64,000 nucleotides of DNA from Escherichia phage GADS24, in the sequence record OQ703618.1; one strand, 5' to 3'. Positions within the stretch are counted from its first letter, which is position 1. Every line of letters begins with the position of its first letter. The notes beneath the pieces were generated by a model. The model had not been told where the DNA came from. It was given only the letters and a program-made list of their open reading frames with translations, and did no database searches. Of this stretch, positions 24,436-34,488 are shown in pieces. The translations under genes were made by a program, and so were the position numbers.

Positions 24436-27400
24436 ATGGCCGACATCAAACGTAAGTTCAGAGCCGAAGACGGTCTGGACGCCGGTGGCGACAAGATTGT
24501 TAACGTAGCATTAGCCGACCGTACAGTAGGTACTGATGGCGTAAACGTTGACTTCCTGGTACAAGAAAACACCGTTCAAGTATATGATTCTACGCGTGGA
24601 TATAACAAAGGATTTGTTGTTCTTTATGACAACCGTTTATATCAAGCAATAAATGATATCGTGTCTCCTTCCGGGGCATTTAACCTTTTACAATGGCGTG
24701 CAGTTCGTACCGATGCACAATGGATAACTGTCGCTTCTGGGACTTATCAACTTTCTTCAGGTGAATCGATTTCGGTTAACACTGGTGCCGGCAATGATAT
24801 GGTTTTCACGTTGCCAAATGCGCCGGTTGATGGTGATACTGTTGTTTTGGCTGATATTGGTGGAAGAACCGGTACAGTTAAAGTACAGATTAACGCGTCT
24901 GTGCAGAGTATTTTAAACTTTAGAGGTGAACAAGTTCGTACAGTTTTAATGACGCGTCCGCGTTCACAACTATTGTTTGTGTTTAGTAATCGTTTGTGGC
25001 AGATGTATATTACCGATTATGGTAAAGAATCAATCACTGTTACACCTGCGGCACCATATCAAGCACAAGCAAATGATTTTATCGTTCGTCGTTTTACTAG
25101 TGCAGCACCAATCAACATTACACTTCCACGTAATGCTAACAATGGTGATATAATCAGCCTAGTCGATTTAGATGGATTAAACCCACTGTATCATACAATT
25201 GTTAAAACATTTGATGATACAACGTCTATTGGCGAAGTCGGGACTCATATTGCCGAAGGCAGAAATGACTCTGACGCGTTTTTTGTTTTTGATGCTGCAA
25301 GTAGTTTATGGCGTATATGTGAAGGCGACCAGAAATCGCGTCTTCGTATTATCCGTGCGGATTCAAATATTCGTCCAAATGAAGAAGTTCTTATTTTTGG
25401 CACAAATAACGCTACAACCGGAACTATTAATCTTACGCTGCCTACCGGAATTTTGAGTGGTGACACTGTTAAAATTTCAATGAACTACATGCGTAAAGGC
25501 CAAACAGTAAAAATTAAAGCTGCCGAAGGTGATACAATTGCTTCTTCTGTTGCATTGCTTCAGTTCCCTAAACGTTCTGAATATCCACCTGATGCTCAAT
25601 GGGTCTCTGTTACTGAACTAGAATTCAATGGCACTACTTCATATGTTCCTGTATTAGAATTAGCGTATATCGAAGACACCGATTCTGACACTCATTATTG
25701 GGTTGTGCAACAGAATGTCCCTACGGTAGAACGTGTTGATGCTGGATCTGATGCTACACGAGCTCGTTTAGGTGTTATTGCTCTTGCTACTCAAGCGCAA
25801 GCAAATGTTGATTTAGAGAATACTCCAGCTAAAGAAGTTGCTATTACTCCTGAAACGTTGGCAAATCGTACAGCAACTGAATCTCGACGTGGTATCGCCA
25901 AAATTGCTACAACAGCGCAAGTTAACCAGAATTCCACAGCATCATTTGTGGACGATACTATTGTTACGCCTAAAAAACTAAATGAGCGTACAGCAACTGA
26001 AACTCGTCGCGGTCTTGCTGAAATTGCTACTCAGACTGAAACCGATGCTGGTCTTGATGACACAACGATTATTACACCTAAGAAATTGCAGGCACGCCAG
26101 GGTTCTGAAACGCTGTCTGGTATAGTTAAATATGTATCAACTACTTCTGCTACTCCTGCTGAAACTCGTGGTGCCGCAGGCACTAATGTTTATAATAAAA
26201 CCATAAATAATTTAACTATTTCTCCTAAAGCCCTTGACCAATATAAAGCAACTTATGCTCAACAAGGTGCGGTAATTTTAGCTGTTGATAGTGAAGTAAT
26301 TGCTGGTCAATCACAAGCAGGTTATTCTCACGCTGTAGTAACTCCTGAAACACTACATAAGAAAACTTCTACTGATGGACGTATTGGTTTAATTGAAATT
26401 GCTACGCAAGCAGAAACTAATGCTGGGACTGATTATACACGTGCAGTAACGCCTAAGACGTTAAATGATAGGAGAGCGACGGAAGGATTATCCGGCATAG
26501 CCGAAATTGCTACGCAAGTTGAATTTGATACTGGAACTGATGATACTCGTATCTCGACTCCACTGAAAATTAAAACTCATTTTGATTCTTCTGACCGTAC
26601 CAGTGTTAATTCTGATTCCGGACTTATTGAAGAAGGAACCTTGTGGAACCATTATACTCTTGATATTTCTAAAGCAAATGAAACACAACGTGGTACACTT
26701 CGCGTAGCGACCCAGGCAGAATCTAATGCAGGAACTTTAGATGATGTTCTTATTACTCCTAAAAAGCTTTTAGGGACTAAGTCCACTGAAACGTCTGAAG
26801 GCGTAATTAAGGTTGCTACTCAGGCTGAAACTGTAACAGGAACGTCAGCAAATACTGCTGTATCTCCTAAGAATTTAAAATGGATTGTCCAGTCTGAACC
26901 AACATGGGCTGCTACTACGGCGATAAGAGGTTTTGTTAAAACTTCATCTGGTTCAATTACATTCGTTGGTAATGATACAGTCGGTTCTACACAGAACTTA
27001 GAGCTATACGAGAAAAATAGCTATGCAGTATCACCATATGAATTAAACCGTGTACTTGCTAACTATTTGCCATTAAAAGCAAAAGCTGCTGACGCAAATT
27101 TATTAGATGGCCTAGATTCATCTCAGTTCATTCGTAGGGACATTGCACAGACGGTTAATGGTTCACTAACCTTAACCCAACAAACGAATCTGAGTGCCCC
27201 TCTTGTATCATCTAGTACCGCTACGTTTGGTGGATCAGTTTCGGCAAATAGTACATTAACTATTTCTAATACTGGAACGGCAACTCGTCTGATTTTTGAA
27301 AAAGGACCTCAGACTGGAACTAACCCAGTACAGACGATGACTATCAGAGTTTGGGGAAATCAGTTTGGTGGTGGTTCAGATACAACACGTTCTACCGTAT

Positions 27401-28311
27401 TTGAAGTTGGCGATGAAACGTCTAATCACTTTTATTCTCAACGTAATAAAGCTGGTAATATAACGTTTAGCATTAATGGTACTGTAATGCCAATAAATGT
27501 TAACGCTTCGGGTTCATTGAATGCGAATGGCGTAGCAACATTTGGTAGTTCAGTTACTGCTAATGGCGAATTCATCAGCAAGTCTGCAAATGCTTTCAGA
27601 GCAATAAACGGTGATTACGGATTCTTTATTCGTAATGATGCTGCTAATACCTATTTTATGCTCACTGCATCAGGTGATCAGACTGGCGGATTTAATGGAT
27701 TACGTCCTTTAGCTATTAATAACGCATCTGGTCAAGTAACGATTGGTGAAAGCTTAATCATCGCCAAAGGTGCTACTATAAATTCAGGTGGTTTAACTGT
27801 TAACTCGAGAATTCGTTCTCAGGGTACTAAAACATCTGATTTATATACCCGTGCACCAACATCTGATACTGTAGGATTCTGGTCAATAGATATTAACGAT
27901 TCAGCCACTTATAACCAGTTCCCAGGTTATTTTAAAATGGTTGAAAAAACTAATGAAGTGACTGGACTTCCATACTTAGAACGTGGTGAAGAAGTTAAAT
28001 CTCCTGGTACATTGACTCAGTTTGGTAATACGCTTGATTCGCTTTACCAAGATTGGATTACTTATCCAACAACTCCGGAAGCACGTACCACTCGCTGGAC
28101 ACGTACATGGCAGAAAACTAAAAATTCTTGGTCAAGTTTTGTTCAGGTATTTGATGGTGGAAACCCTCCTCAACCTTCTGATATTGGCGCTTTACCTTCT
28201 GATAATGCAACAATCGGAAACTTGACAATAAGGGATTTCTTAAGGATTGGTAATGTCCGCATTATTCCAGACCCTGTGAATAAATCTGTTAAATTCGAGT
28301 GGATTGAATAA
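24436..28311 (+). CDS. 34: long tail fibre proximal subunit gp34
   Basis: 1291 aa; extensive match to T4 gp34 including N-terminus MA.IKR.FRAEDGLDAGGDKI.NVALADRTVGTDGVNVD and C-terminus. Confidence 0.97.
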   Translation: MADIKRKFRAEDGLDAGGDKIVNVALADRTVGTDGVNVDFLVQENTVQVYDSTRGYNKGFVVLYDNRLYQAINDIVSPSGAFNLLQWRAVRTDAQWITVASGTYQLSSGESISVNTGAGNDMVFTLPNAPVDGDTVVLADIGGRTGTVKVQINASVQSILNFRGEQVRTVLMTRPRSQLLFVFSNRLWQMYITDYGKESITVTPAAPYQAQANDFIVRRFTSAAPINITLPRNANNGDIISLVDLDGLNPLYHTIVKTFDDTTSIGEVGTHIAEGRNDSDAFFVFDAASSLWRICEGDQKSRLRIIRADSNIRPNEEVLIFGTNNATTGTINLTLPTGILSGDTVKISMNYMRKGQTVKIKAAEGDTIASSVALLQFPKRSEYPPDAQWVSVTELEFNGTTSYVPVLELAYIEDTDSDTHYWVVQQNVPTVERVDAGSDATRARLGVIALATQAQANVDLENTPAKEVAITPETLANRTATESRRGIAKIATTAQVNQNSTASFVDDTIVTPKKLNERTATETRRGLAEIATQTETDAGLDDTTIITPKKLQARQGSETLSGIVKYVSTTSATPAETRGAAGTNVYNKTINNLTISPKALDQYKATYAQQGAVILAVDSEVIAGQSQAGYSHAVVTPETLHKKTSTDGRIGLIEIATQAETNAGTDYTRAVTPKTLNDRRATEGLSGIAEIATQVEFDTGTDDTRISTPLKIKTHFDSSDRTSVNSDSGLIEEGTLWNHYTLDISKANETQRGTLRVATQAESNAGTLDDVLITPKKLLGTKSTETSEGVIKVATQAETVTGTSANTAVSPKNLKWIVQSEPTWAATTAIRGFVKTSSGSITFVGNDTVGSTQNLELYEKNSYAVSPYELNRVLANYLPLKAKAADANLLDGLDSSQFIRRDIAQTVNGSLTLTQQTNLSAPLVSSSTATFGGSVSANSTLTISNTGTATRLIFEKGPQTGTNPVQTMTIRVWGNQFGGGSDTTRSTVFEVGDETSNHFYSQRNKAGNITFSINGTVMPINVNASGSLNANGVATFGSSVTANGEFISKSANAFRAINGDYGFFIRNDAANTYFMLTASGDQTGGFNGLRPLAINNASGQVTIGESLIIAKGATINSGGLTVNSRIRSQGTKTSDLYTRAPTSDTVGFWSIDINDSATYNQFPGYFKMVEKTNEVTGLPYLERGEEVKSPGTLTQFGNTLDSLYQDWITYPTTPEARTTRWTRTWQKTKNSWSSFVQVFDGGNPPQPSDIGALPSDNATIGNLTIRDFLRIGNVRIIPDPVNKSVKFEWIE

Positions 28312-28319
28312 GAGGTATT

Positions 28320-29447
28320 ATGGAAAAATTTATGGCTAAGTTTGGACAAGGATACGTCCAAACGCCATTTTTATCGGAAAGCAATTCAGTACGATTTAAA
28401 TTAAGCATAGCGGGATCTTGCCCGCTATCAACATCTCCTGCTTATATTAAGTTTCAAGATAATCCACTTGGGTCCCAGGTTTTTTCCGTTGGATTAAACG
28501 TTCGTGTAATAAATCCTACAACAGGTGCAGTAGTTGAATCTAAGTCATATAATTTCTCTACTGAAAACGACGCCACGTCAAGTGCATTTGTTACTTACAT
28601 GGACACATATGCTTCAAATTTTATATTTGCTCTTGTTACTAACGCTAAAACAAACTTTCCACCTGAAGTTCTCGCATGGTTTACTAAAGCTGGGAGTTCT
28701 GTTATTCCATTAGCTCAACAAGTTTTAAATATAGTGGACATTTCTTATTCAGCATTTTATATTTCTGGTAAGAATGCTATAGCACTAGAACATATTAAGT
28801 ATAGTAATAAGAAAACTTCAACCGACTATAGTACACCACTTGATGTTGTGTACGACACGATTGATGATATTGGTGCTACCGGCTTCCCTAGACGTACGTA
28901 TGAATCGTCAGACACATTTTTATCTGCTGTTGGAGGTACTAATAATGAAATTAAAAGGATGCCTACAACATCCATTATTACACCTCTCGCTGGGTATAAA
29001 TTGAAGCCTGGAGATTTCCTTTATATGAAATTCCAACTAATGGCCGATGCTGATTTGTTAGCACAAGGGACGACACGACTTTCTATTCGTTTCTTTAAAT
29101 CTCCTTCTACTTCACCTATTTCATTTAAGGATATAAACTTTGATGGGGGCGCAGGTGAATGGAAGATATATGAAGACTACATAGAAATTCCTGGTGGTGC
29201 TGATGGGTTCACGATTTATTGTTATCGTACGGCTCCAGTCGGGCAAGGTGGATTAAGAAACGTTATATTCACTGAAGTATCATGTAATGGAAGCGTTTCA
29301 AAACCTGCCGAGTTTGGTATAAATGGTATTCGTGTAAATTACGTTTCAGAATCTTTAAGTGCTCCAGACATAATGACATTACCTACTCAATCTTCAACCG
29401 ATACTGGTAAGGTATTTGGTCAAGAATTTAAAGAAGCATCAGAATAA
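28320..29447 (+). CDS. 35: long tail fibre hinge connector gp35
   Basis: 375 aa; synteny. Confidence 0.9.
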   Translation: MEKFMAKFGQGYVQTPFLSESNSVRFKLSIAGSCPLSTSPAYIKFQDNPLGSQVFSVGLNVRVINPTTGAVVESKSYNFSTENDATSSAFVTYMDTYASNFIFALVTNAKTNFPPEVLAWFTKAGSSVIPLAQQVLNIVDISYSAFYISGKNAIALEHIKYSNKKTSTDYSTPLDVVYDTIDDIGATGFPRRTYESSDTFLSAVGGTNNEIKRMPTTSIITPLAGYKLKPGDFLYMKFQLMADADLLAQGTTRLSIRFFKSPSTSPISFKDINFDGGAGEWKIYEDYIEIPGGADGFTIYCYRTAPVGQGGLRNVIFTEVSCNGSVSKPAEFGINGIRVNYVSESLSAPDIMTLPTQSSTDTGKVFGQEFKEASE

Positions 29448-29509: not shown

Positions 29510-30172
29510 ATGGCCGATTTAAAAGCTGGTAGTACAACTGGCGGTGCTGTCATATGGCATCAAGGTAATTTCCCTTTAATGCCAGCAGGTGATGACGTCC
29601 TGTATAAAACGTTTAAACTCTATTCAGAATATAATAAACCACAAGCTGCTGATAACGATTTCGTTTCTAAAGCTAATGGTGGTACTTACGCTGCAACTGT
29701 TCGATTTAATGGAGGCGTACATGTTCCTACTGTAGGTAGTAGTCAACAATGCGGTGTTTATCCAGGTAACGGTGATGCAGCTACTTTTGCTATGGCAAAT
29801 ATTGACATCGTTTCGTGGAATGGTATTGGTTTTAAGTCATCACAAGGTTCAGCCGACCGAACTGTTGTAATTAATGCACGTAATGGTGATATTAGTACAA
29901 AAGGCGTTGTGTCAGCAGTAGGTCAAATAAGAAGTAATGCAGTTGCTCCAGTTGCAGCAAATGATCTCACAAGAAAAGATTATGTTGATGGACGAATAAA
30001 TATTGTTACGGATAACGCAAATTCTCGTGTATTGCGTAAAGGCGATACCATGACTGGTACTTTAACAGCACCAAACTTTTTCTCACAGAATCCGGCGTCT
30101 GAGGCTAATCATGTTCCTCGTTTCGACCAGATTGTAATTAAGGATTCTGTTCAAGATTTCGGCTATTATTAA
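29510..30172 (+). CDS. 36: long tail fibre distal connector gp36
   Basis: 220 aa; matches T4 gp36; synteny. Confidence 0.92.
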
Positions 30173-30180
30173 GAGGACTT

Positions 30181-33100
30181 ATGGCTACTTTAAAACAAAT
30201 ACAATTTAAAAGAAGCAAAATCGCAGGTGCCCGTCCTGCTGCTTCAGTATTAGCCGAAGGTGAATTGGCTATAAACTTAAAAGATAGAACAATTTTTACT
30301 AAAGACGATTCAGGAAATATCATCGATTTAAGCATTTCCGCTGGCGGTAATATCAGTGGAAATGTAACTATTGACGGAACTTTACGCGTCAATGGACCAA
30401 TAAACAATTTTGGAAATTTTTCCACAAGTGGCCAGATTACCGCTGGTAGTAGTATTTCAGCTCAAGTTTTTAGAGCATTGCAAGGTTCATTTTATACAAG
30501 AGCAACAAACGATACTGCAAATGCCCATCTTTGGTTTGAAAATACAAATGGATCGGAGAGAGGTGTTTTATATTCAAAACCACAGTCTGAAAATGAAGGC
30601 GTAATTACAATGCGTGTTCGCCAAGGAACCGCAGCAGGGGCTCAAAATTCAGAATTTCATTTCATTTCTACTGATGGTGGTATTTTCCAGGCACGCAAGT
30701 TAACTGCTTTAACTTCTATTAGTACACCAACTATTAGTGTTAATTTAATTAATCACGATTCTAAAGCCTTTGGACAATATGATTCTCAATCTTTGGTCAA
30801 CTATGTTTATCCTGGCACCGGTGAAACGAATGGTGTAAACTATCTTCGTAAAGTTCGTGCTAAATCCGGTGGCACTATGTGGCATGAGCTTTGTACTGCT
30901 CAGACAGGGCAAGCTGATGAAATGTCTTGGTGGACAGGTAATACCCCACAGTCAAAACAGTATGGTATTCGTAACGATGGTCGAATAGCTGGACGTAATA
31001 GCCTTGCATTAGGTACATTCACTACAGATTTCCCGTCTAGTGATTATGGTAACGTCGGTGTAATGGGCGATAAGTATCTTGTTCTCGGTGACACTGTAAC
31101 TGGCTTGTCATACAAAAAAACTGGTGTATTTGATCTAGTTGGTGGTGGATATTCTGTTGCTTCTATTACTCCTGACAGTTTCCGTAGTACTCGTAAAGGT
31201 ATATTTGGACGCTCAGAAGATCAAGGTACAACATGGATTATGCCTGGAACGAACGTTGCATTTTTATCAGTTCAAACCCAAGCTGATGAAAACACTGCTG
31301 GAGACGGTCAGACACATATTGGCTATAACTCAGGCGGAAAAATGAACCACTATTTCCGTGGTAAAGGCAAAACTAATATTAATACTCAAGAAGGCGTGGA
31401 AGTTAACCCGGGTATTTTGAAATTGGTAACTGGCTCGAATAATGTAATGTTTTATGCTGATGGCGGTATTACATCTGTTAAGCAGCTTTCAATATATAAC
31501 GGAATATATTTAGCAGCTAATAATTCTACTGCTGGGCTAACATTCGCTCCAACTACTACAGTTGATGGCACTAAGCAAATTTTGTGGGAAGGTGGTACTC
31601 GTGCTGGGCAGAATAAAAGCTATGTAACTGTTAAAGCGTGGGGTAATTCATTTAATGCATCTGGTGATCGTAATCGTGAAACAGTTTTTGAAGTAGCTGA
31701 CGGACAAGGTTATTATTTTTATTCCCAACGCGTAGCCCCAAGCGGCTCCGAAACTACTGGTCCTGTTGTAACCCAGTTTGCTGGAGCTGTTAATGCTAGA
31801 GGAAGTATTATTACTGACGGAAGTTTTAAAGTTAATGGATTAAGCACTTTAGTCGGTAATGTTACCATGTCTAATGGTTTGTTTGTTCAAGGTGGTTCTT
31901 CTATTACTGGACAAGTTAAAATTGGTGGAACAGCTGATGCATTAAGAATTTGGAATGCTGAATACGGGGCTATTTTCCGTCGTTCTGAAGATAAGCTTTA
32001 TATTATTCCAACTCCACAGAATGCTGGTGAATCAGGTGGTATTTCTAATTTACGTCCGTTCTATATTGCATTAAGTGATGGTAAAGTCAGCATGGGTCAT
32101 GATGTTGATATCGGCGGCGGTAGATTTAAAGTAGAAGCGGCTGGGACTACGGTTGGTCAACGCATAACAGTAAATATGGCATCAGATGCTATTAGAATAA
32201 ATGCCCCAACACAAGAATCTTCTAACTTCATCCAAGGACGTAAAGCAGATGTTCCAAAATGGTATTTAGGTATTGGCGATGGCGGCAACGTCGTTCGTAT
32301 GCACAGTTACACCTACTCCCATGGTATTGCATTAAACTCTGATACGGTTGATATAGCTAAACCTCTTAGAATAGGTTCAACCCAGATTGGTACTGATGGT
32401 AATATTACTGGTGGTTCTGGTAATTTTGCTAACTTGAATACCACAATAAATAACCTTAAGACGGATATTGTGTCGAGTTATCCAATTGGTGCTCCGATTC
32501 CTTGGCCAACGGATACTCCTCCTGAAGGTTATGCCATAATGGAAGGTCAAACATTTGATGTTGACTTGTATCCTAAATTAGCTGCGGTGTATCCTTCCGG
32601 CGCACTGCCTGATATGCGTGGTCAAACTATCAAGGGTAAACCATCTGGGCGTGATGTATTGAGTACAGAAGCAGACGGTGTTAAGTCACATAGCCATAGT
32701 GCAAGTGCATCAAGCACAGATTTGGGTACTAAAAATACGTCAAGTTTTGATTATGGTAATAAAACGACTTCAAGCTTTGATTATGGTACTAAGACCAGCA
32801 ATACCACAGGTAACCATGCTCATACGGTAAGTGGTACTACGAGTGCAGCTGGTAACCACCAGCACTCACAGACAGGCCCAAGAGGACCTAGTAACCAACC
32901 GACCGGGATATTTCCTAATGGGGCTACTCTAATTAGTGGGTCTCAGGTTGTTGGTTTTGGCCTAAGCAACGGTGTCGTGCCTGGTACAAGCCAATATATT
33001 GCAAAGTCGTCAACAGAAGGTAACCATACTCATAGTTGGTCTGGTACTACAAGCACTACAGGTAACCATGCTCATACGGTAGGTATTGGTGCTCATTCTC

Positions 33101-33237
33101 ATACTGTGGGTATTGGCGCTCATTCTCATACTGTTGCAATTGGTTCCCATGGACATACAATAACTGTAAATGCCACAGGAAATACAGAAAACACAGTTAA
33201 AAACGTTGCTTTTAACTATATCGTTCGTTTAGCATAA
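30181..33237 (+). CDS. 37: long tail fibre distal subunit gp37 (receptor-recognising), with C-terminal His-box array
   Basis: 1018 aa; N-terminal and central regions match T4 gp37 ([49 protein letters not shown]...); C-terminus [31 protein letters not shown] as in T4. Confidence 0.95.
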
Positions 33238-33267
33238 GGAGAAGGGACTTCTGTCCCTTTTTATAAT
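33236..33267 (+). promoter_or_regulatory. Gene 38 split ribosome-binding site: SD AAGGAG, GGGAC-UUCU-GUCCC hairpin, U-tract, AUG
   Basis: SD at 33236-33241 is 26 nt from AUG 33268 but hairpin 33245-33258 would bring them together; also acts as terminator-like element after gene 37. Confidence 0.5.
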
Positions 33268-33819
33268 ATGAAACTCTATCACTATTATTTTGACACTAAA
33301 GAATTTTACAAAGAAGAAAATTATAAACCATTAAAAGGCGTAGGATTTCCGGCTCATTCAACACCAAAAAAACCTTTAGACCCTAAAGAAGGCTATGCTG
33401 TTATATTTGACGAACGCGAGCAAGAATGGGTATATGTTGAAGACCATCGTGGAAAAACAGTATGGACTTATGATAAGCAAAAAATTGTTATTGACACCCC
33501 AGGTGCTCTTCAAAATGTTACTACAGAAGAACCTGGTGAATTTGACATTTGGACTGGCGACGGGTGGAAGGAAGATGAAGCATATAAACGCGTAGTTCAA
33601 CGTGATAAGAAAATTCATGAACTCTATAAATTATTCAGTGTTTTAAGTTCTCTTATTGACGCAGAGGTTGCTAATAGAGAAGAAAAACGAAAATTTAAAG
33701 AGCTCAAAAAATTCTTTGCCCTTTTAGAAAAACACGAACATCTTGGCGGTGAATTCCCTAAATTCCCTGACCTTGAAAACAAATCTATTGTCAAAGCGAT
33801 TATAAATATCTTTAAGTAA
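33268..33819 (+). CDS. 38: gp38 tail fibre assembly chaperone (T4-type)
   Basis: 183 aa matching T4 gp38 (M.IYHYYFDTKEFYKEENYKP...FALLEKHEHLGGEFP). Confidence 0.9.
   Translation: MKLYHYYFDTKEFYKEENYKPLKGVGFPAHSTPKKPLDPKEGYAVIFDEREQEWVYVEDHRGKTVWTYDKQKIVIDTPGALQNVTTEEPGEFDIWTGDGWKEDEAYKRVVQRDKKIHELYKLFSVLSSLIDAEVANREEKRKFKELKKFFALLEKHEHLGGEFPKFPDLENKSIVKAIINIFK
33801..33808 (+). promoter_or_regulatory. Late promoter TATAAATA for holin t
   Basis: Exact TATAAATA inside 3' end of gene 38, 21 nt upstream of t ATG. Confidence 0.55.
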
Positions 33820-33828
33820 GGAGGTATT

Positions 33829-34488
33829 ATGGCAACACCAAAAGTATCATTTTCACTTAGTGATATTCTATTTGGGTTGCTAGATCGTATTTTCAAAGAT
33901 AACGCTACTGGAAAGGTTTTAATGTCCCGAGTAGCGGTAATTATTCTTTTGTTCCTAATGGCACTAATATGGTACAAAGGAAGTATTTTGCTGGATTATT
34001 ACGTAAGAGCTAAGTATGATACTTATACTGAAATAATCCAAAAAGAACGAGCTTTACGTTTTGAATCTGCGGCTCTAGAACAACTGCAAATAGTTCATAT
34101 CTCATCTGGTGCAGATTTTAGTGCTGTGTATTCTTTCAGACCTAAAAACTTAAATTATTTTGTCGACCTTATAGCTTATGAAGGCAAACTACCTAGCACA
34201 ATTTCTGAAAAGTCCCTTGGTGGATTCCCGGTGGATAAAACGGCCGATGAATATATAATTCATTTAAGCGGCCGTCATTTCTCATCTAAATCAGAATTTG
34301 CATTTTTGCCTACAAAATCTAAGACTGCCGAACTTTCTTATATGTATAGTTGTCCATACTTTAATTTGGATAACATCTATGCTGGAACTGTGACGATGTA
34401 TTGGTATAAGGGGAATAATATACTTGAGGAGGACCGCTTAGCGGCTATATGCAACCAAGCGGTCCGAATACTAGGAAGGGCTAAATAA
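33829..34488 (+). CDS. t: holin T
   Basis: 219 aa matching T4 holin (..SFS.SDILFG.LDR.FKDNATGKVL.SRVAV...CPYFNLDNIYAGT.TMYWY). Confidence 0.93.
   Translation: MATPKVSFSLSDILFGLLDRIFKDNATGKVLMSRVAVIILLFLMALIWYKGSILLDYYVRAKYDTYTEIIQKERALRFESAALEQLQIVHISSGADFSAVYSFRPKNLNYFVDLIAYEGKLPSTISEKSLGGFPVDKTADEYIIHLSGRHFSSKSEFAFLPTKSKTAELSYMYSCPYFNLDNIYAGTVTMYWYKGNNILEEDRLAAICNQAVRILGRAK

What the first reader, a model, noticed from the sequence alone, without database searches (positions are those of the whole stretch)
32688..33165. gp37 C-terminal histidine-box array (GNHAHT, GNHQHS, GNHTHS, GAHSHT x2, GSHGHT) in the receptor-binding tip
The distal tail-fibre tip carries at least seven H-x-H boxes, some embedded in near-identical repeats (TTSSFDYG twice, GIGAHSHTV twice). 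In T4 such His boxes coordinate metal ions in the needle domain. The repeat structure here differs from T4 and the protein is slightly shorter, implying a different tip architecture and possibly different receptor specificity; the nucleotide repeats are also recombination-prone.
Basis: partly seen in the sequence, partly recalled or inferred. Interest (0 to 1): 0.5.

Follow-up and report, generated by a model that had tools for sequence, protein, structure and literature searches.

The report
Ordinary T4-type tail-fibre tip, eight His boxes
This is the receptor-binding end of the long tail fibre (gp37) of a Mosigvirus (T4-like) coliphage: a known variant with eight metal-binding His-x-His boxes instead of T4's seven, and a tip already present in sequenced phages, one of which uses the porin OmpC.

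Summary
gp37 (30181-33237, 1018 aa) has exactly eight H-x-H boxes, all between nt 32689 and 33156. No shuffle out of 20,000 reached that count. The region matches the solved T4 gp37 tip (PDB 2XGF, E 1.6e-86). The next gene is a T4-type gp38 chaperone.

Compared with T4 there are three differences:
- one extra 10-aa TSSFDYGxK unit on the outgoing arm;
- one extra 9-aa GIGAHSHTV box on the returning arm;
- an unrelated, longer stretch between the two central boxes (53 aa against 34).

None of this is new. Phage lambda Stf and many Mosigvirus gp37 proteins show the same eight-box spacing. The tip is 100% identical in phages SSE1, HY126 and ECO111 5-P. It is 48/53 identical in JK42, whose receptor was mapped to OmpC in a genome-wide screen. 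A different receptor from T4 is therefore unlikely.

One regularity emerged. The two repeat types change copy number together in 237/237 database representatives and 37/38 IMG/VR sequences. PhiZZ6 and PhiZZ23 carry almost the same tip on 8-box and 7-box needles. The single exception is a clean 27-nt deletion of one returning-arm unit.

Verdict: already known; low interest.

The parts
30181..33237 (+). gene 37, long tail fibre distal subunit (1018 aa)
   Evidence: ORF. Pfam Collar, gp37_trimer and Gp34_trimer domains. 61% identity to T4 gp37 over its full length.
32488..32631 (+). collar domain (corresponds to T4 domain D10), aa 770-817
   Evidence: Pfam PF07484 Collar, E 1.5e-11. Aligned to the 2XGF collar.
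32689..32865 (+). outgoing (ascending) arm of the needle, aa 837-895. It holds H-x-H boxes 1-3 (aa 837, 879, 893) and three 10-aa units between boxes 1 and 2: [27 protein letters not shown].
   Evidence: T4 has two such units, and the spacing from box 1 to box 2 is 42 aa here against 32 in T4.
32725..32792 (+). 30-nt tandem repeat (2.3 copies) encoding the xxSSFDYGxK units
   Evidence: Tandem Repeats Finder score 101, 84% matches. Repeat family D3. The two units are 24/30 nt identical.
32866..33024 (+). tip (head) region, the 53 aa between boxes 3 and 4: [53 protein letters not shown]. This is the presumed receptor-contacting part.
   Evidence: Occupies the position of the T4 tip subdomain, residues 932-959 (PMC6957217). 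No similarity to the T4 tip. 100% identical in SSE1, HY126 and ECO111 5-P. 48/53 identical in the OmpC phage JK42. 56% identical to a prophage side-tail-fibre tip, P0007.
33025..33156 (+). returning (descending) arm of the needle, aa 949-992. It holds H-x-H boxes 4-8 (aa 949, 963, 972, 981, 990), the last four spaced exactly 9 aa apart.
   Evidence: spacings 14, 9, 9, 9. T4 has four boxes on this arm.
33067..33134 (+). 27-nt tandem repeat (2.5 copies). The two GIGAHSHTV units lie at 33082-33108 and 33109-33135.
   Evidence: Tandem Repeats Finder score 108, 90% matches. The units are 25/27 nt identical, with a 17-nt exact run in register.
33157..33234 (+). conserved C-terminal strand that returns to the collar ([25 protein letters not shown])
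   Evidence: Nearly invariant across 35 homologues. Aligned to the C-terminus of 2XGF.
33238..33270 (+). gene 37/38 junction. GGAG lies 26 nt upstream of the gene 38 ATG (33268). Between them is a GGGAC-UUCU-GUCCC hairpin (core 33244-33257).
   Evidence: RNA fold of -16.7 kcal/mol, z-score -3.0. T4 has GGGGC-TTCG-GCCCC at the same place, which differs by one base change on each side of a stem pair.
33268..33819 (+). gene 38, T4-type tail-fibre assembly chaperone (183 aa), not a T2/T6-type adhesin
   Evidence: Pfam Caudo_TAP. 66% identical to T4 gp38 over 179 aa, 99% to SSE1 and 96% to AV117.

Best explanation
The region encodes the collar, needle and tip of a T4-type gp37 adhesin. These correspond to T4 domains D10 and D11.

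Proposed mechanism:
- The chain leaves the collar, runs out to the tip and doubles back, so three chains together make a six-stranded beta needle.
- Each H-x-H box, contributed by all three chains, supplies six histidines around one metal ion (iron in T4).
- Eight boxes therefore predict eight metal sites, one more than in T4.
- The extra layer comes from a matched pair of insertions: one 10-aa TSSFDYGxK unit on the outgoing arm and one 9-aa GIGAHxHTV box on the returning arm.
- The 53 residues between boxes 3 and 4 form the distal head that contacts the host, most probably OmpC.
- The gp38 encoded directly downstream is the folding chaperone, not the adhesin.

Shown here: the homology, the number and spacing of boxes, the paired change in repeat copy number across relatives, and the identity of the tip to sequenced phages.

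Inferred: metal occupancy, trimer geometry, the extra needle length (roughly 3 nm from generic beta-strand rise), and the receptor.
For: - Homology to the solved T4 tip 2XGF: E 1.6e-86 over aa 740-1018.
- Collar domain and gp34-38 gene order.
- gp38 is 66% identical to the T4 chaperone.
- Eight boxes; 0 of 20,000 shuffles reach that number.
- T4 has seven H-x-H boxes and seven irons (PMC6957217), which gives one box per iron.
- The chain doubles back to give six strands, and the number of boxes is suggested to scale with needle length (PMC12609058).
- T4 residues reported as structurally critical are G921, H929, H931, G964 and F970. Counting from the boxes in the alignment, they correspond to G885, H893, H895, G947 and W953.
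- Paired modules: the box 1 to box 2 spacing and the number of 9-spaced returning boxes occur only as (22,2), (32,3), (41 or 42,4) and (52,5) in 235 of 237 cluster representatives. The other two lack a second outgoing box but still have two units against three boxes.
- Each class carries many unrelated tips.
- PhiZZ6 and PhiZZ23 carry almost the same tip on an 8-box and a 7-box needle, with both arms changed.
- Receptor: JK42 has the same layout, 94% identity from PDMRG to the C-terminus and 48/53 identical tip residues. Its screen hits were ompC, envZ and ompR.
- AV117, with the same eight-box layout, uses OmpC.
Against: - No trimer model or metal analysis was possible. The AlphaFold2 monomer model was unusable (mean pLDDT 53, pTM 0.21).
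- One natural sequence breaks the pairing rule. L004, an IMG/VR metagenome contig, has three outgoing units but only three 9-spaced boxes because of a clean 27-nt deletion. A mismatch may therefore be tolerated, or that gene may be defective.
- The counts are not phylogenetically independent.
- The receptor inference rests on a relative whose tip differs at five positions, and on a preprint.
- Some Mosigvirus or Tequatrovirus phages that use T4-type gp37 appear to depend on LPS rather than OmpC (AV116, AV122).
Confidence: 0.85

Rival explanations
1. The divergent tip recognises a receptor other than OmpC, such as another porin or LPS alone. On this reading the first reader's suggestion of changed receptor specificity is correct.
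For: The tip shows no detectable similarity to the T4 tip and is 19 aa longer. AV116 and AV122, which also use T4-type gp37, appear LPS-dependent. The window's tip differs from JK42's at five positions.
Against: JK42 has 48/53 identical tip residues and the same architecture, and its screen hits were ompC, envZ and ompR. All 17 Straboviridae with receptor-determining Gp37 C-terminal domains in that screen are OmpC-specific despite extensive variation in the tip. AV117 and AV118 also use OmpC.
Confidence: 0.15
2. The His boxes matter mainly at the DNA level. On this reading they are conserved sequence islands that act as crossover points for swapping tips, and as slippage sites that change copy number. 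This is the older 'His box' idea, recalled from memory of the Tetart and Krisch papers, which I could not read. Metal binding would then be secondary.
For: - Many unrelated tip families sit between near-identical box modules: 11 to 27 families per needle class.
- Similar tips occur on different needles in PhiZZ6/PhiZZ23 and in P0007/the window.
- L004 carries a clean 27-nt single-unit deletion.
- In the window, the core of unit 2 (CATTCTCATACTGT) matches unit 3, whereas SSE1 and L004 differ there. This looks like conversion between units.
- The relevant paper titles are cited in PMC3157838.
Against: - The histidines themselves are invariant at the protein level.
- Alanine substitutions of H929 and H931 abolish T4 plaque formation.
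- The exact repeats are short: 13 to 17 nt in register.
- The two roles are compatible, so this is an addition to the main explanation rather than a replacement.
Confidence: 0.3
3. The extra repeat pair is a neutral length variant with no effect on function. On this reading the apparent pairing of the two arms reflects shared ancestry of a few ancient needle types rather than a structural constraint.
For: Only four or five needle classes exist. Cluster representatives are related to each other. One mismatched sequence exists in nature.
Against: The variable tip lies between the two arms, so a single crossover inside it between parents of different classes would create mismatches. Only 1 mismatch is seen in 275 sequences. 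The closely related PhiZZ6 and PhiZZ23 differ on both arms at once. A six-stranded antiparallel needle requires both arms to span the same length.
Confidence: 0.15

Closest known systems
Bacteriophage T4 gp37 receptor-binding tip (PDB 2XGF; domains D10-D11)
   Same: - Collar, six-stranded needle with H-x-H boxes, distal tip and conserved C-terminal strand, at E 1.6e-86.
- Same gene order, and a homologous gp38 chaperone at 66% identity.
- Same hairpin between the Shine-Dalgarno sequence and the gene 38 start codon.
   Different: - Eight boxes against seven.
- One extra 10-aa unit on the outgoing arm and one extra 9-aa box on the returning arm.
- The stretch between the central boxes is 53 aa against 34, with no detectable similarity.
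- The shaft is about 46 aa shorter.
gp37 of Mosigvirus phages JK42, SSE1, HY126, ECO111 5-P, mar005P1 and pEK20
   Same: - Same eight-box layout and the same tip family.
- The tip is 100% identical in SSE1, HY126 and ECO111 5-P.
- JK42 is 94% identical from PDMRG to the end, with 48/53 identical tip residues.
- HY126 is 97% identical over the last 279 aa.
   Different: - The rest of gp37 is mosaic: only 63% identity to SSE1 over the full length.
- No record in the phage collection exceeds about 94% nucleotide identity over the tip-encoding 841 nt.
Phage lambda side tail fibre Stf with its chaperone Tfa, and related E. coli prophage fibres
   Same: - Lambda Stf box spacing is 42, 14, x, 14, 9, 9, 9, with eight boxes as here.
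- A chaperone of the same Pfam family lies downstream.
- Prophage fibres P0007, P0009 and P0010 carry a tip 56% identical to the window's.
   Different: - A different N-terminal fibre body on a siphovirus.
- The lambda tip itself is unrelated.
- The prophage fibres with the related tip have the seven-box needle.
- No nucleotide-level match to the tip in 5,426 complete E. coli genomes.
Felixounavirus Bas63 long and short tail-fibre tips (cryo-EM, PMC12609058)
   Same: Collar, H-x-H needle and head architecture. The number of boxes varies (six or seven) and was suggested to scale with needle length.
   Different: Distant sequences, at about 31-38% identity in Felixounavirus hits. Fewer boxes.

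Membership tests
T4-type gp37 receptor-binding tip (2XGF fold; gp37 itself is the adhesin) | Significant sequence homology to T4 gp37 residues 785-1026 | tested here: met
   phmmer E 1.6e-86, aa 740-1018 aligned to chain residues 2-242.
T4-type gp37 receptor-binding tip (2XGF fold; gp37 itself is the adhesin) | Collar domain immediately before the needle | tested here: met
   Pfam PF07484, E 1.5e-11, aa 770-817.
T4-type gp37 receptor-binding tip (2XGF fold; gp37 itself is the adhesin) | H-x-H boxes on both an outgoing and a returning arm, flanking a variable tip | tested here: met
   Three boxes before and five after a 53-aa variable stretch. 0 of 20,000 shuffles reach eight boxes.
T4-type gp37 receptor-binding tip (2XGF fold; gp37 itself is the adhesin) | Conserved C-terminal strand ...[19 protein letters not shown] | tested here: met
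   Present in the ORF. These columns are invariant or nearly invariant in 35 homologues.
T4-type gp37 receptor-binding tip (2XGF fold; gp37 itself is the adhesin) | A T4-type gp38/Tfa chaperone encoded directly downstream, rather than a glycine-rich gp38 adhesin | tested here: met
   183 aa, Pfam Caudo_TAP. 66% identical to T4 gp38.
T4-type gp37 receptor-binding tip (2XGF fold; gp37 itself is the adhesin) | Homotrimer with one octahedrally coordinated iron per box | not testable with these tools
   Only a monomer could be modelled, and the model was poor (pLDDT 53). Metal content needs experiment.
T4-type gp37 receptor-binding tip (2XGF fold; gp37 itself is the adhesin) | Binds OmpC and/or LPS through the tip | not testable with these tools
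   Indirect only. JK42, with 48/53 identical tip residues, gave ompC, envZ and ompR as screen hits.
T2/T6-type distal fibre (gp37 capped by a gp38 adhesin of about 260 aa) | A gp38 of about 260 aa that serves as the adhesin; per the papers read, its C-terminal part has glycine-rich motifs and hypervariable segments | tested here: not met
   The gene after gp37 encodes a 183-aa homologue of the T4 chaperone. gp37 keeps its own needle and tip. The adhesin features are described in PMC3157838 and PMC10844046.

The most novel reading that the evidence does not exclude
The gp37/Stf needle may be a quantised ladder. Its length would be set by obligatorily paired modules.

- Proximal layers pair a 10-aa box-free unit on the outgoing arm with a 9-aa H-x-H unit on the returning arm.
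- Distal layers pair 14-aa H-x-H units on both arms.
- Together these give 4 to 9 metal sites across the family.

Slippage in one repeat array, as in contig L004, would produce a mismatched fibre that needs a compensating change in the other array. The window would be an ordinary eight-site example of this rule.

The papers I could read note only that the number of boxes may scale with needle length. I did not find the pairing rule stated anywhere, and I could not read the original 2010 structure paper.
Probability: 0.55. Interest if true: 0.3.

Novelty: already known. Interest (0 to 1): 0.15.

Why it matters
It matters little as a discovery. The domain, its metal-binding boxes, its chaperone and this exact tip allele are already in public phage genomes, and a near-identical tip has an experimentally assigned receptor (OmpC).

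There are two practical points:
- For host-range prediction or fibre engineering, this phage should be treated as a gp37-adhesin, OmpC-type Mosigvirus rather than a gp38-adhesin type.
- Anyone grafting tips between T4, lambda Stf and Mosigvirus fibres should keep the outgoing and returning arms of the needle matched in unit number. Natural sequences almost never mix them.

Tried and rejected
- AlphaFold2 on the last 279 aa with a 35-sequence alignment gave mean pLDDT 53 and pTM 0.21. This is expected for one chain of an intertwined trimer. I did not use the model and ran no fold search. A trimer could not be submitted.
- A protein search with the 53-aa tip alone found no candidate sharing the required words. 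Full-length T-even gp37 proteins also did not appear, so that database seems not to index them. I used tblastn against the phage collection instead.
- A nucleotide search of the tip against 5,426 complete E. coli genomes gave no match. The prophage tips related at 56% protein identity are therefore not recent exchanges.
- The 2010 T4 tip structure paper could not be retrieved by DOI or by a guessed PMC id. Structural statements are taken from PMC6957217 and PMC12609058.
- Searches for 'His boxes' and 'GXHXH' in full text found nothing usable. What I say about the 1996 and 1998 Tetart and Krisch papers beyond their titles comes from memory.
- My first regular expression for the outgoing units miscounted divergent sequences, giving apparent off-diagonal classes. 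Using the box 1 to box 2 spacing removed them. The two '(69,3)' cases are sequences with no second outgoing box, not exceptions.
- The stem-loop after gene 37 is not called a terminator by the pattern scan. I read it as the gene 38 ribosome-binding-site hairpin.
Full report
**What is there.** The window comes from a T4-like phage of the genus Mosigvirus. Neighbouring sequence is 97-98.6% identical to Mosigvirus genomes such as AV112, AV113 and ECO111 5-P. The tail-fibre block reads as follows:
- gp34, 24436-28311
- gp35, 28320-29447
- gp36, 29510-30172
- gp37, 30181-33237, 1018 aa
- a 183-aa gp38, 33268-33819
- holin, 33829-34488

The finding covers gp37 aa 836-995.

**Checking the observation.** gp37 contains eight H-x-H boxes, at aa 837, 879, 893, 949, 963, 972, 981 and 990 (nt 32689-33156). 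There are none elsewhere in the protein. All 16 histidines of the last 200 residues sit in the boxes. In 20,000 shuffles of the whole protein or of the last 200 residues, none reached eight; the means were 0.58 and 1.18.

'TTSSFDYG twice' is really [10 protein letters not shown] followed by [10 protein letters not shown], with 24/30 nt identical. Tandem Repeats Finder reports the 30-nt and 27-nt arrays.

**What it is.** The last 279 aa match the crystallised T4 gp37 tip (2XGF) at E 1.6e-86. Pfam finds the Collar domain at aa 770-817. The downstream protein belongs to the Caudo_TAP family and is 66% identical to the T4 gp38 chaperone. This is therefore the T4 arrangement, in which gp37 itself is the adhesin. 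It is not the T2/T6 arrangement with a gp38 adhesin.

In T4, D10 is the collar. D11 is a stem (882-931 and 960-1009) plus a tip subdomain (932-959). Seven irons are coordinated along the needle, and H929 and H931 are essential (PMC6957217). The chain doubles back at the head, so the needle has six strands (PMC12609058). T4 has seven H-x-H boxes in this region, which gives one box per iron. The window therefore predicts eight sites.

**How it differs from T4.** The alignment and the module breakdown show three differences:
- an extra 10-aa unit between boxes 1 and 2, giving a spacing of 42 against 32;
- an extra 9-aa GIGAHSHTV box on the returning arm, giving four 9-spaced boxes against three;
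- a 53-aa stretch between the central boxes, against 34 in T4, with no detectable similarity.

The protein is 8 aa shorter than T4 only because the shaft is about 46 aa shorter. The tip region is 38 aa longer.

**The paired-module regularity.** I measured two quantities in 237 homologues: 118 cluster representatives at 90% identity, and 119 at 50% identity. The quantities were the box 1 to box 2 spacing and the number of terminal 9-spaced boxes.

| Box 1 to box 2 spacing (aa) | Terminal 9-spaced boxes | Sequences |
|---|---|---|
| 22 | 2 | 1 |
| 32 | 3 | 147 |
| 41 or 42 | 4 | 81 |
| 52 | 5 | 6 |

Two further sequences lack a second outgoing box, but they still have two units against three boxes.

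The distal 14-aa box modules are also matched between the arms. The pairs seen are (2,0), (3,1) and (4,2), counting outgoing boxes against returning boxes outside the 9-spaced run. Total boxes per protein range from 4 to 9. Eight boxes occur in 28 of the 237 sequences.

Each class carries many unrelated tips, 11 to 27 families. This argues against simple co-inheritance, because the tip lies between the two arms.

An independent IMG/VR set gave 37 of 38 distinct sequences on the rule.

Named phages make the point directly:
- Lambda Stf, VR7, PhiZZ6, APCEc01 and JK42 share the window's spacing of 42, 14, x, 14, 9, 9, 9.
- PhiZZ23 carries almost the same tip as PhiZZ6 on a seven-box needle, with both arms one unit shorter.

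If the boxes of the two arms interleave along the axis, the residue offsets give roughly even steps of 7 to 9 residues between successive sites, both in T4 and in the window. This is my inference; no coordinates were available.

**The exception.** L004, an IMG/VR metagenome contig, has three outgoing units but only three 9-spaced boxes. Against the window and SSE1 this is a clean 27-nt deletion of one unit, within otherwise near-identical sequence. It also shows that the pairing is not absolute, or that this gene is defective.

In the window, the core of unit 2 is identical to unit 3, whereas SSE1 and L004 differ there. This suggests conversion between units.

**The tip and the receptor.** The 60-aa tip query is 100% identical in SSE1, HY126 and ECO111 5-P. 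About 30 phage records carry it at 75% identity or more. The phage collection contains nothing above about 94% nucleotide identity for the whole 841-nt region, and gp37 as a whole is mosaic (63% to SSE1).

JK42 has the same layout, 94% identity from PDMRG to the C-terminus and 48/53 identical tip residues. In a genome-wide screen its top hits were ompC, envZ and ompR, and it is listed as OmpC primary and Kdo secondary (supplement of bioRxiv 10.64898/2026.04.02.716166).

That study found 17 OmpC-specific Straboviridae whose Gp37 C-terminal domains show extensive allelic variation in the tip. Mosigvirus AV117 and AV118 also use OmpC (PMC10844046), and AV117 has the same eight-box needle. OmpC is therefore the most likely receptor here. 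This is the same protein T4 uses, despite the unrelated tip sequence.

A related tip (56% identity) occurs on seven-box side tail fibres of E. coli prophages. There is no nucleotide-level match in complete E. coli genomes.

**Comparison with what is known, and novelty.** All sequence-testable defining features of the T4-type gp37 tip are met. The trimer, the metal content and receptor binding could not be tested.

Variation in box number with needle length has already been noted for Bas63 fibres. The eight-box layout is that of lambda Stf. The finding is a correct description of a known domain and a known allele, so I rate it already known and of low interest.

The only new element is the strict pairing of outgoing and returning modules. 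I did not find it stated in the papers I could read. It is a modest structural regularity rather than a new kind of system.

**Limits.** The monomer AlphaFold2 model was unusable. The counts across homologues are not phylogenetically independent.

Noticed in passing
window 33238-33270: Between the gene 37 stop codon (33235-33237) and the gene 38 ATG (33268), the only Shine-Dalgarno-like GGAG lies 26 nt upstream of the ATG. A GGGAC-UUCU-GUCCC hairpin lies between them (-16.7 kcal/mol, z-score -3.0). T4 has GGGGC-TTCG-GCCCC at the same spot, so one stem pair has changed on both sides. From memory, this resembles the 'split ribosome-binding site' described for T4 gene 38. The terminator scan does not call it a terminator.
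   Followed up: partly
L004 1750-2010 (IMGVR_UViG_3300030021_000020): A metagenomic gp37 74% identical to the window keeps three outgoing TSSFDYG-type units. It has lost exactly one 27-nt GIGAHxHTV unit relative to the window and SSE1. It is the only arm-mismatched sequence among 275 examined. The gene is intact and is followed by a 183-aa gp38-like ORF.
   Followed up: partly
L089 (PhiZZ6) and L087 (PhiZZ23): These two related Citrobacter Tequatrovirus phages carry almost the same tip (NEGTYFSSYGYFMNGYNTRQSSGAAIETSNR...). PhiZZ6 has it on an eight-box needle and PhiZZ23 on a seven-box needle. They differ by one unit on each arm, a natural paired insertion or deletion.
   Followed up: partly
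window 30181-32397 versus 32398-33237: gp37 is mosaic. The last 279 aa are 97% identical to HY126, and the tip is 100% identical to SSE1. Full-length identity to SSE1 is only 63% and to T4 61%. AV117 matches the first 756 aa at 71%. The shaft is about 46 aa shorter than in T4.
   Followed up: partly
window 33082-33135: The two GIGAHSHTV units share a 17-nt exact run. In SSE1 and L004 the first of the two units has a different core (CATACCCAT/C...). The window's copy therefore looks homogenised towards its neighbour, as gene conversion between units would produce.
   Followed up: partly
proteins P0047, P0048, P0066, P0070, P0072, P0077: Several E. coli assembly proteins join the needle-and-tip C-terminus to unrelated N-termini. 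These carry terminase small-subunit, terminase large-subunit or tape-measure Pfam domains, and the proteins are named accordingly by their sources. They are probably products of prophage deletions or rearrangements, and they are misleadingly annotated.
   Followed up: no
window 28320-29447 (gp35): The hinge protein gp35 gives a weak Pfam match to the ILEI domain (interleukin-like EMT inducer): E 5.6e-07, 30.4 bits against a cut-off of 27, aa 58-128.
   Followed up: no
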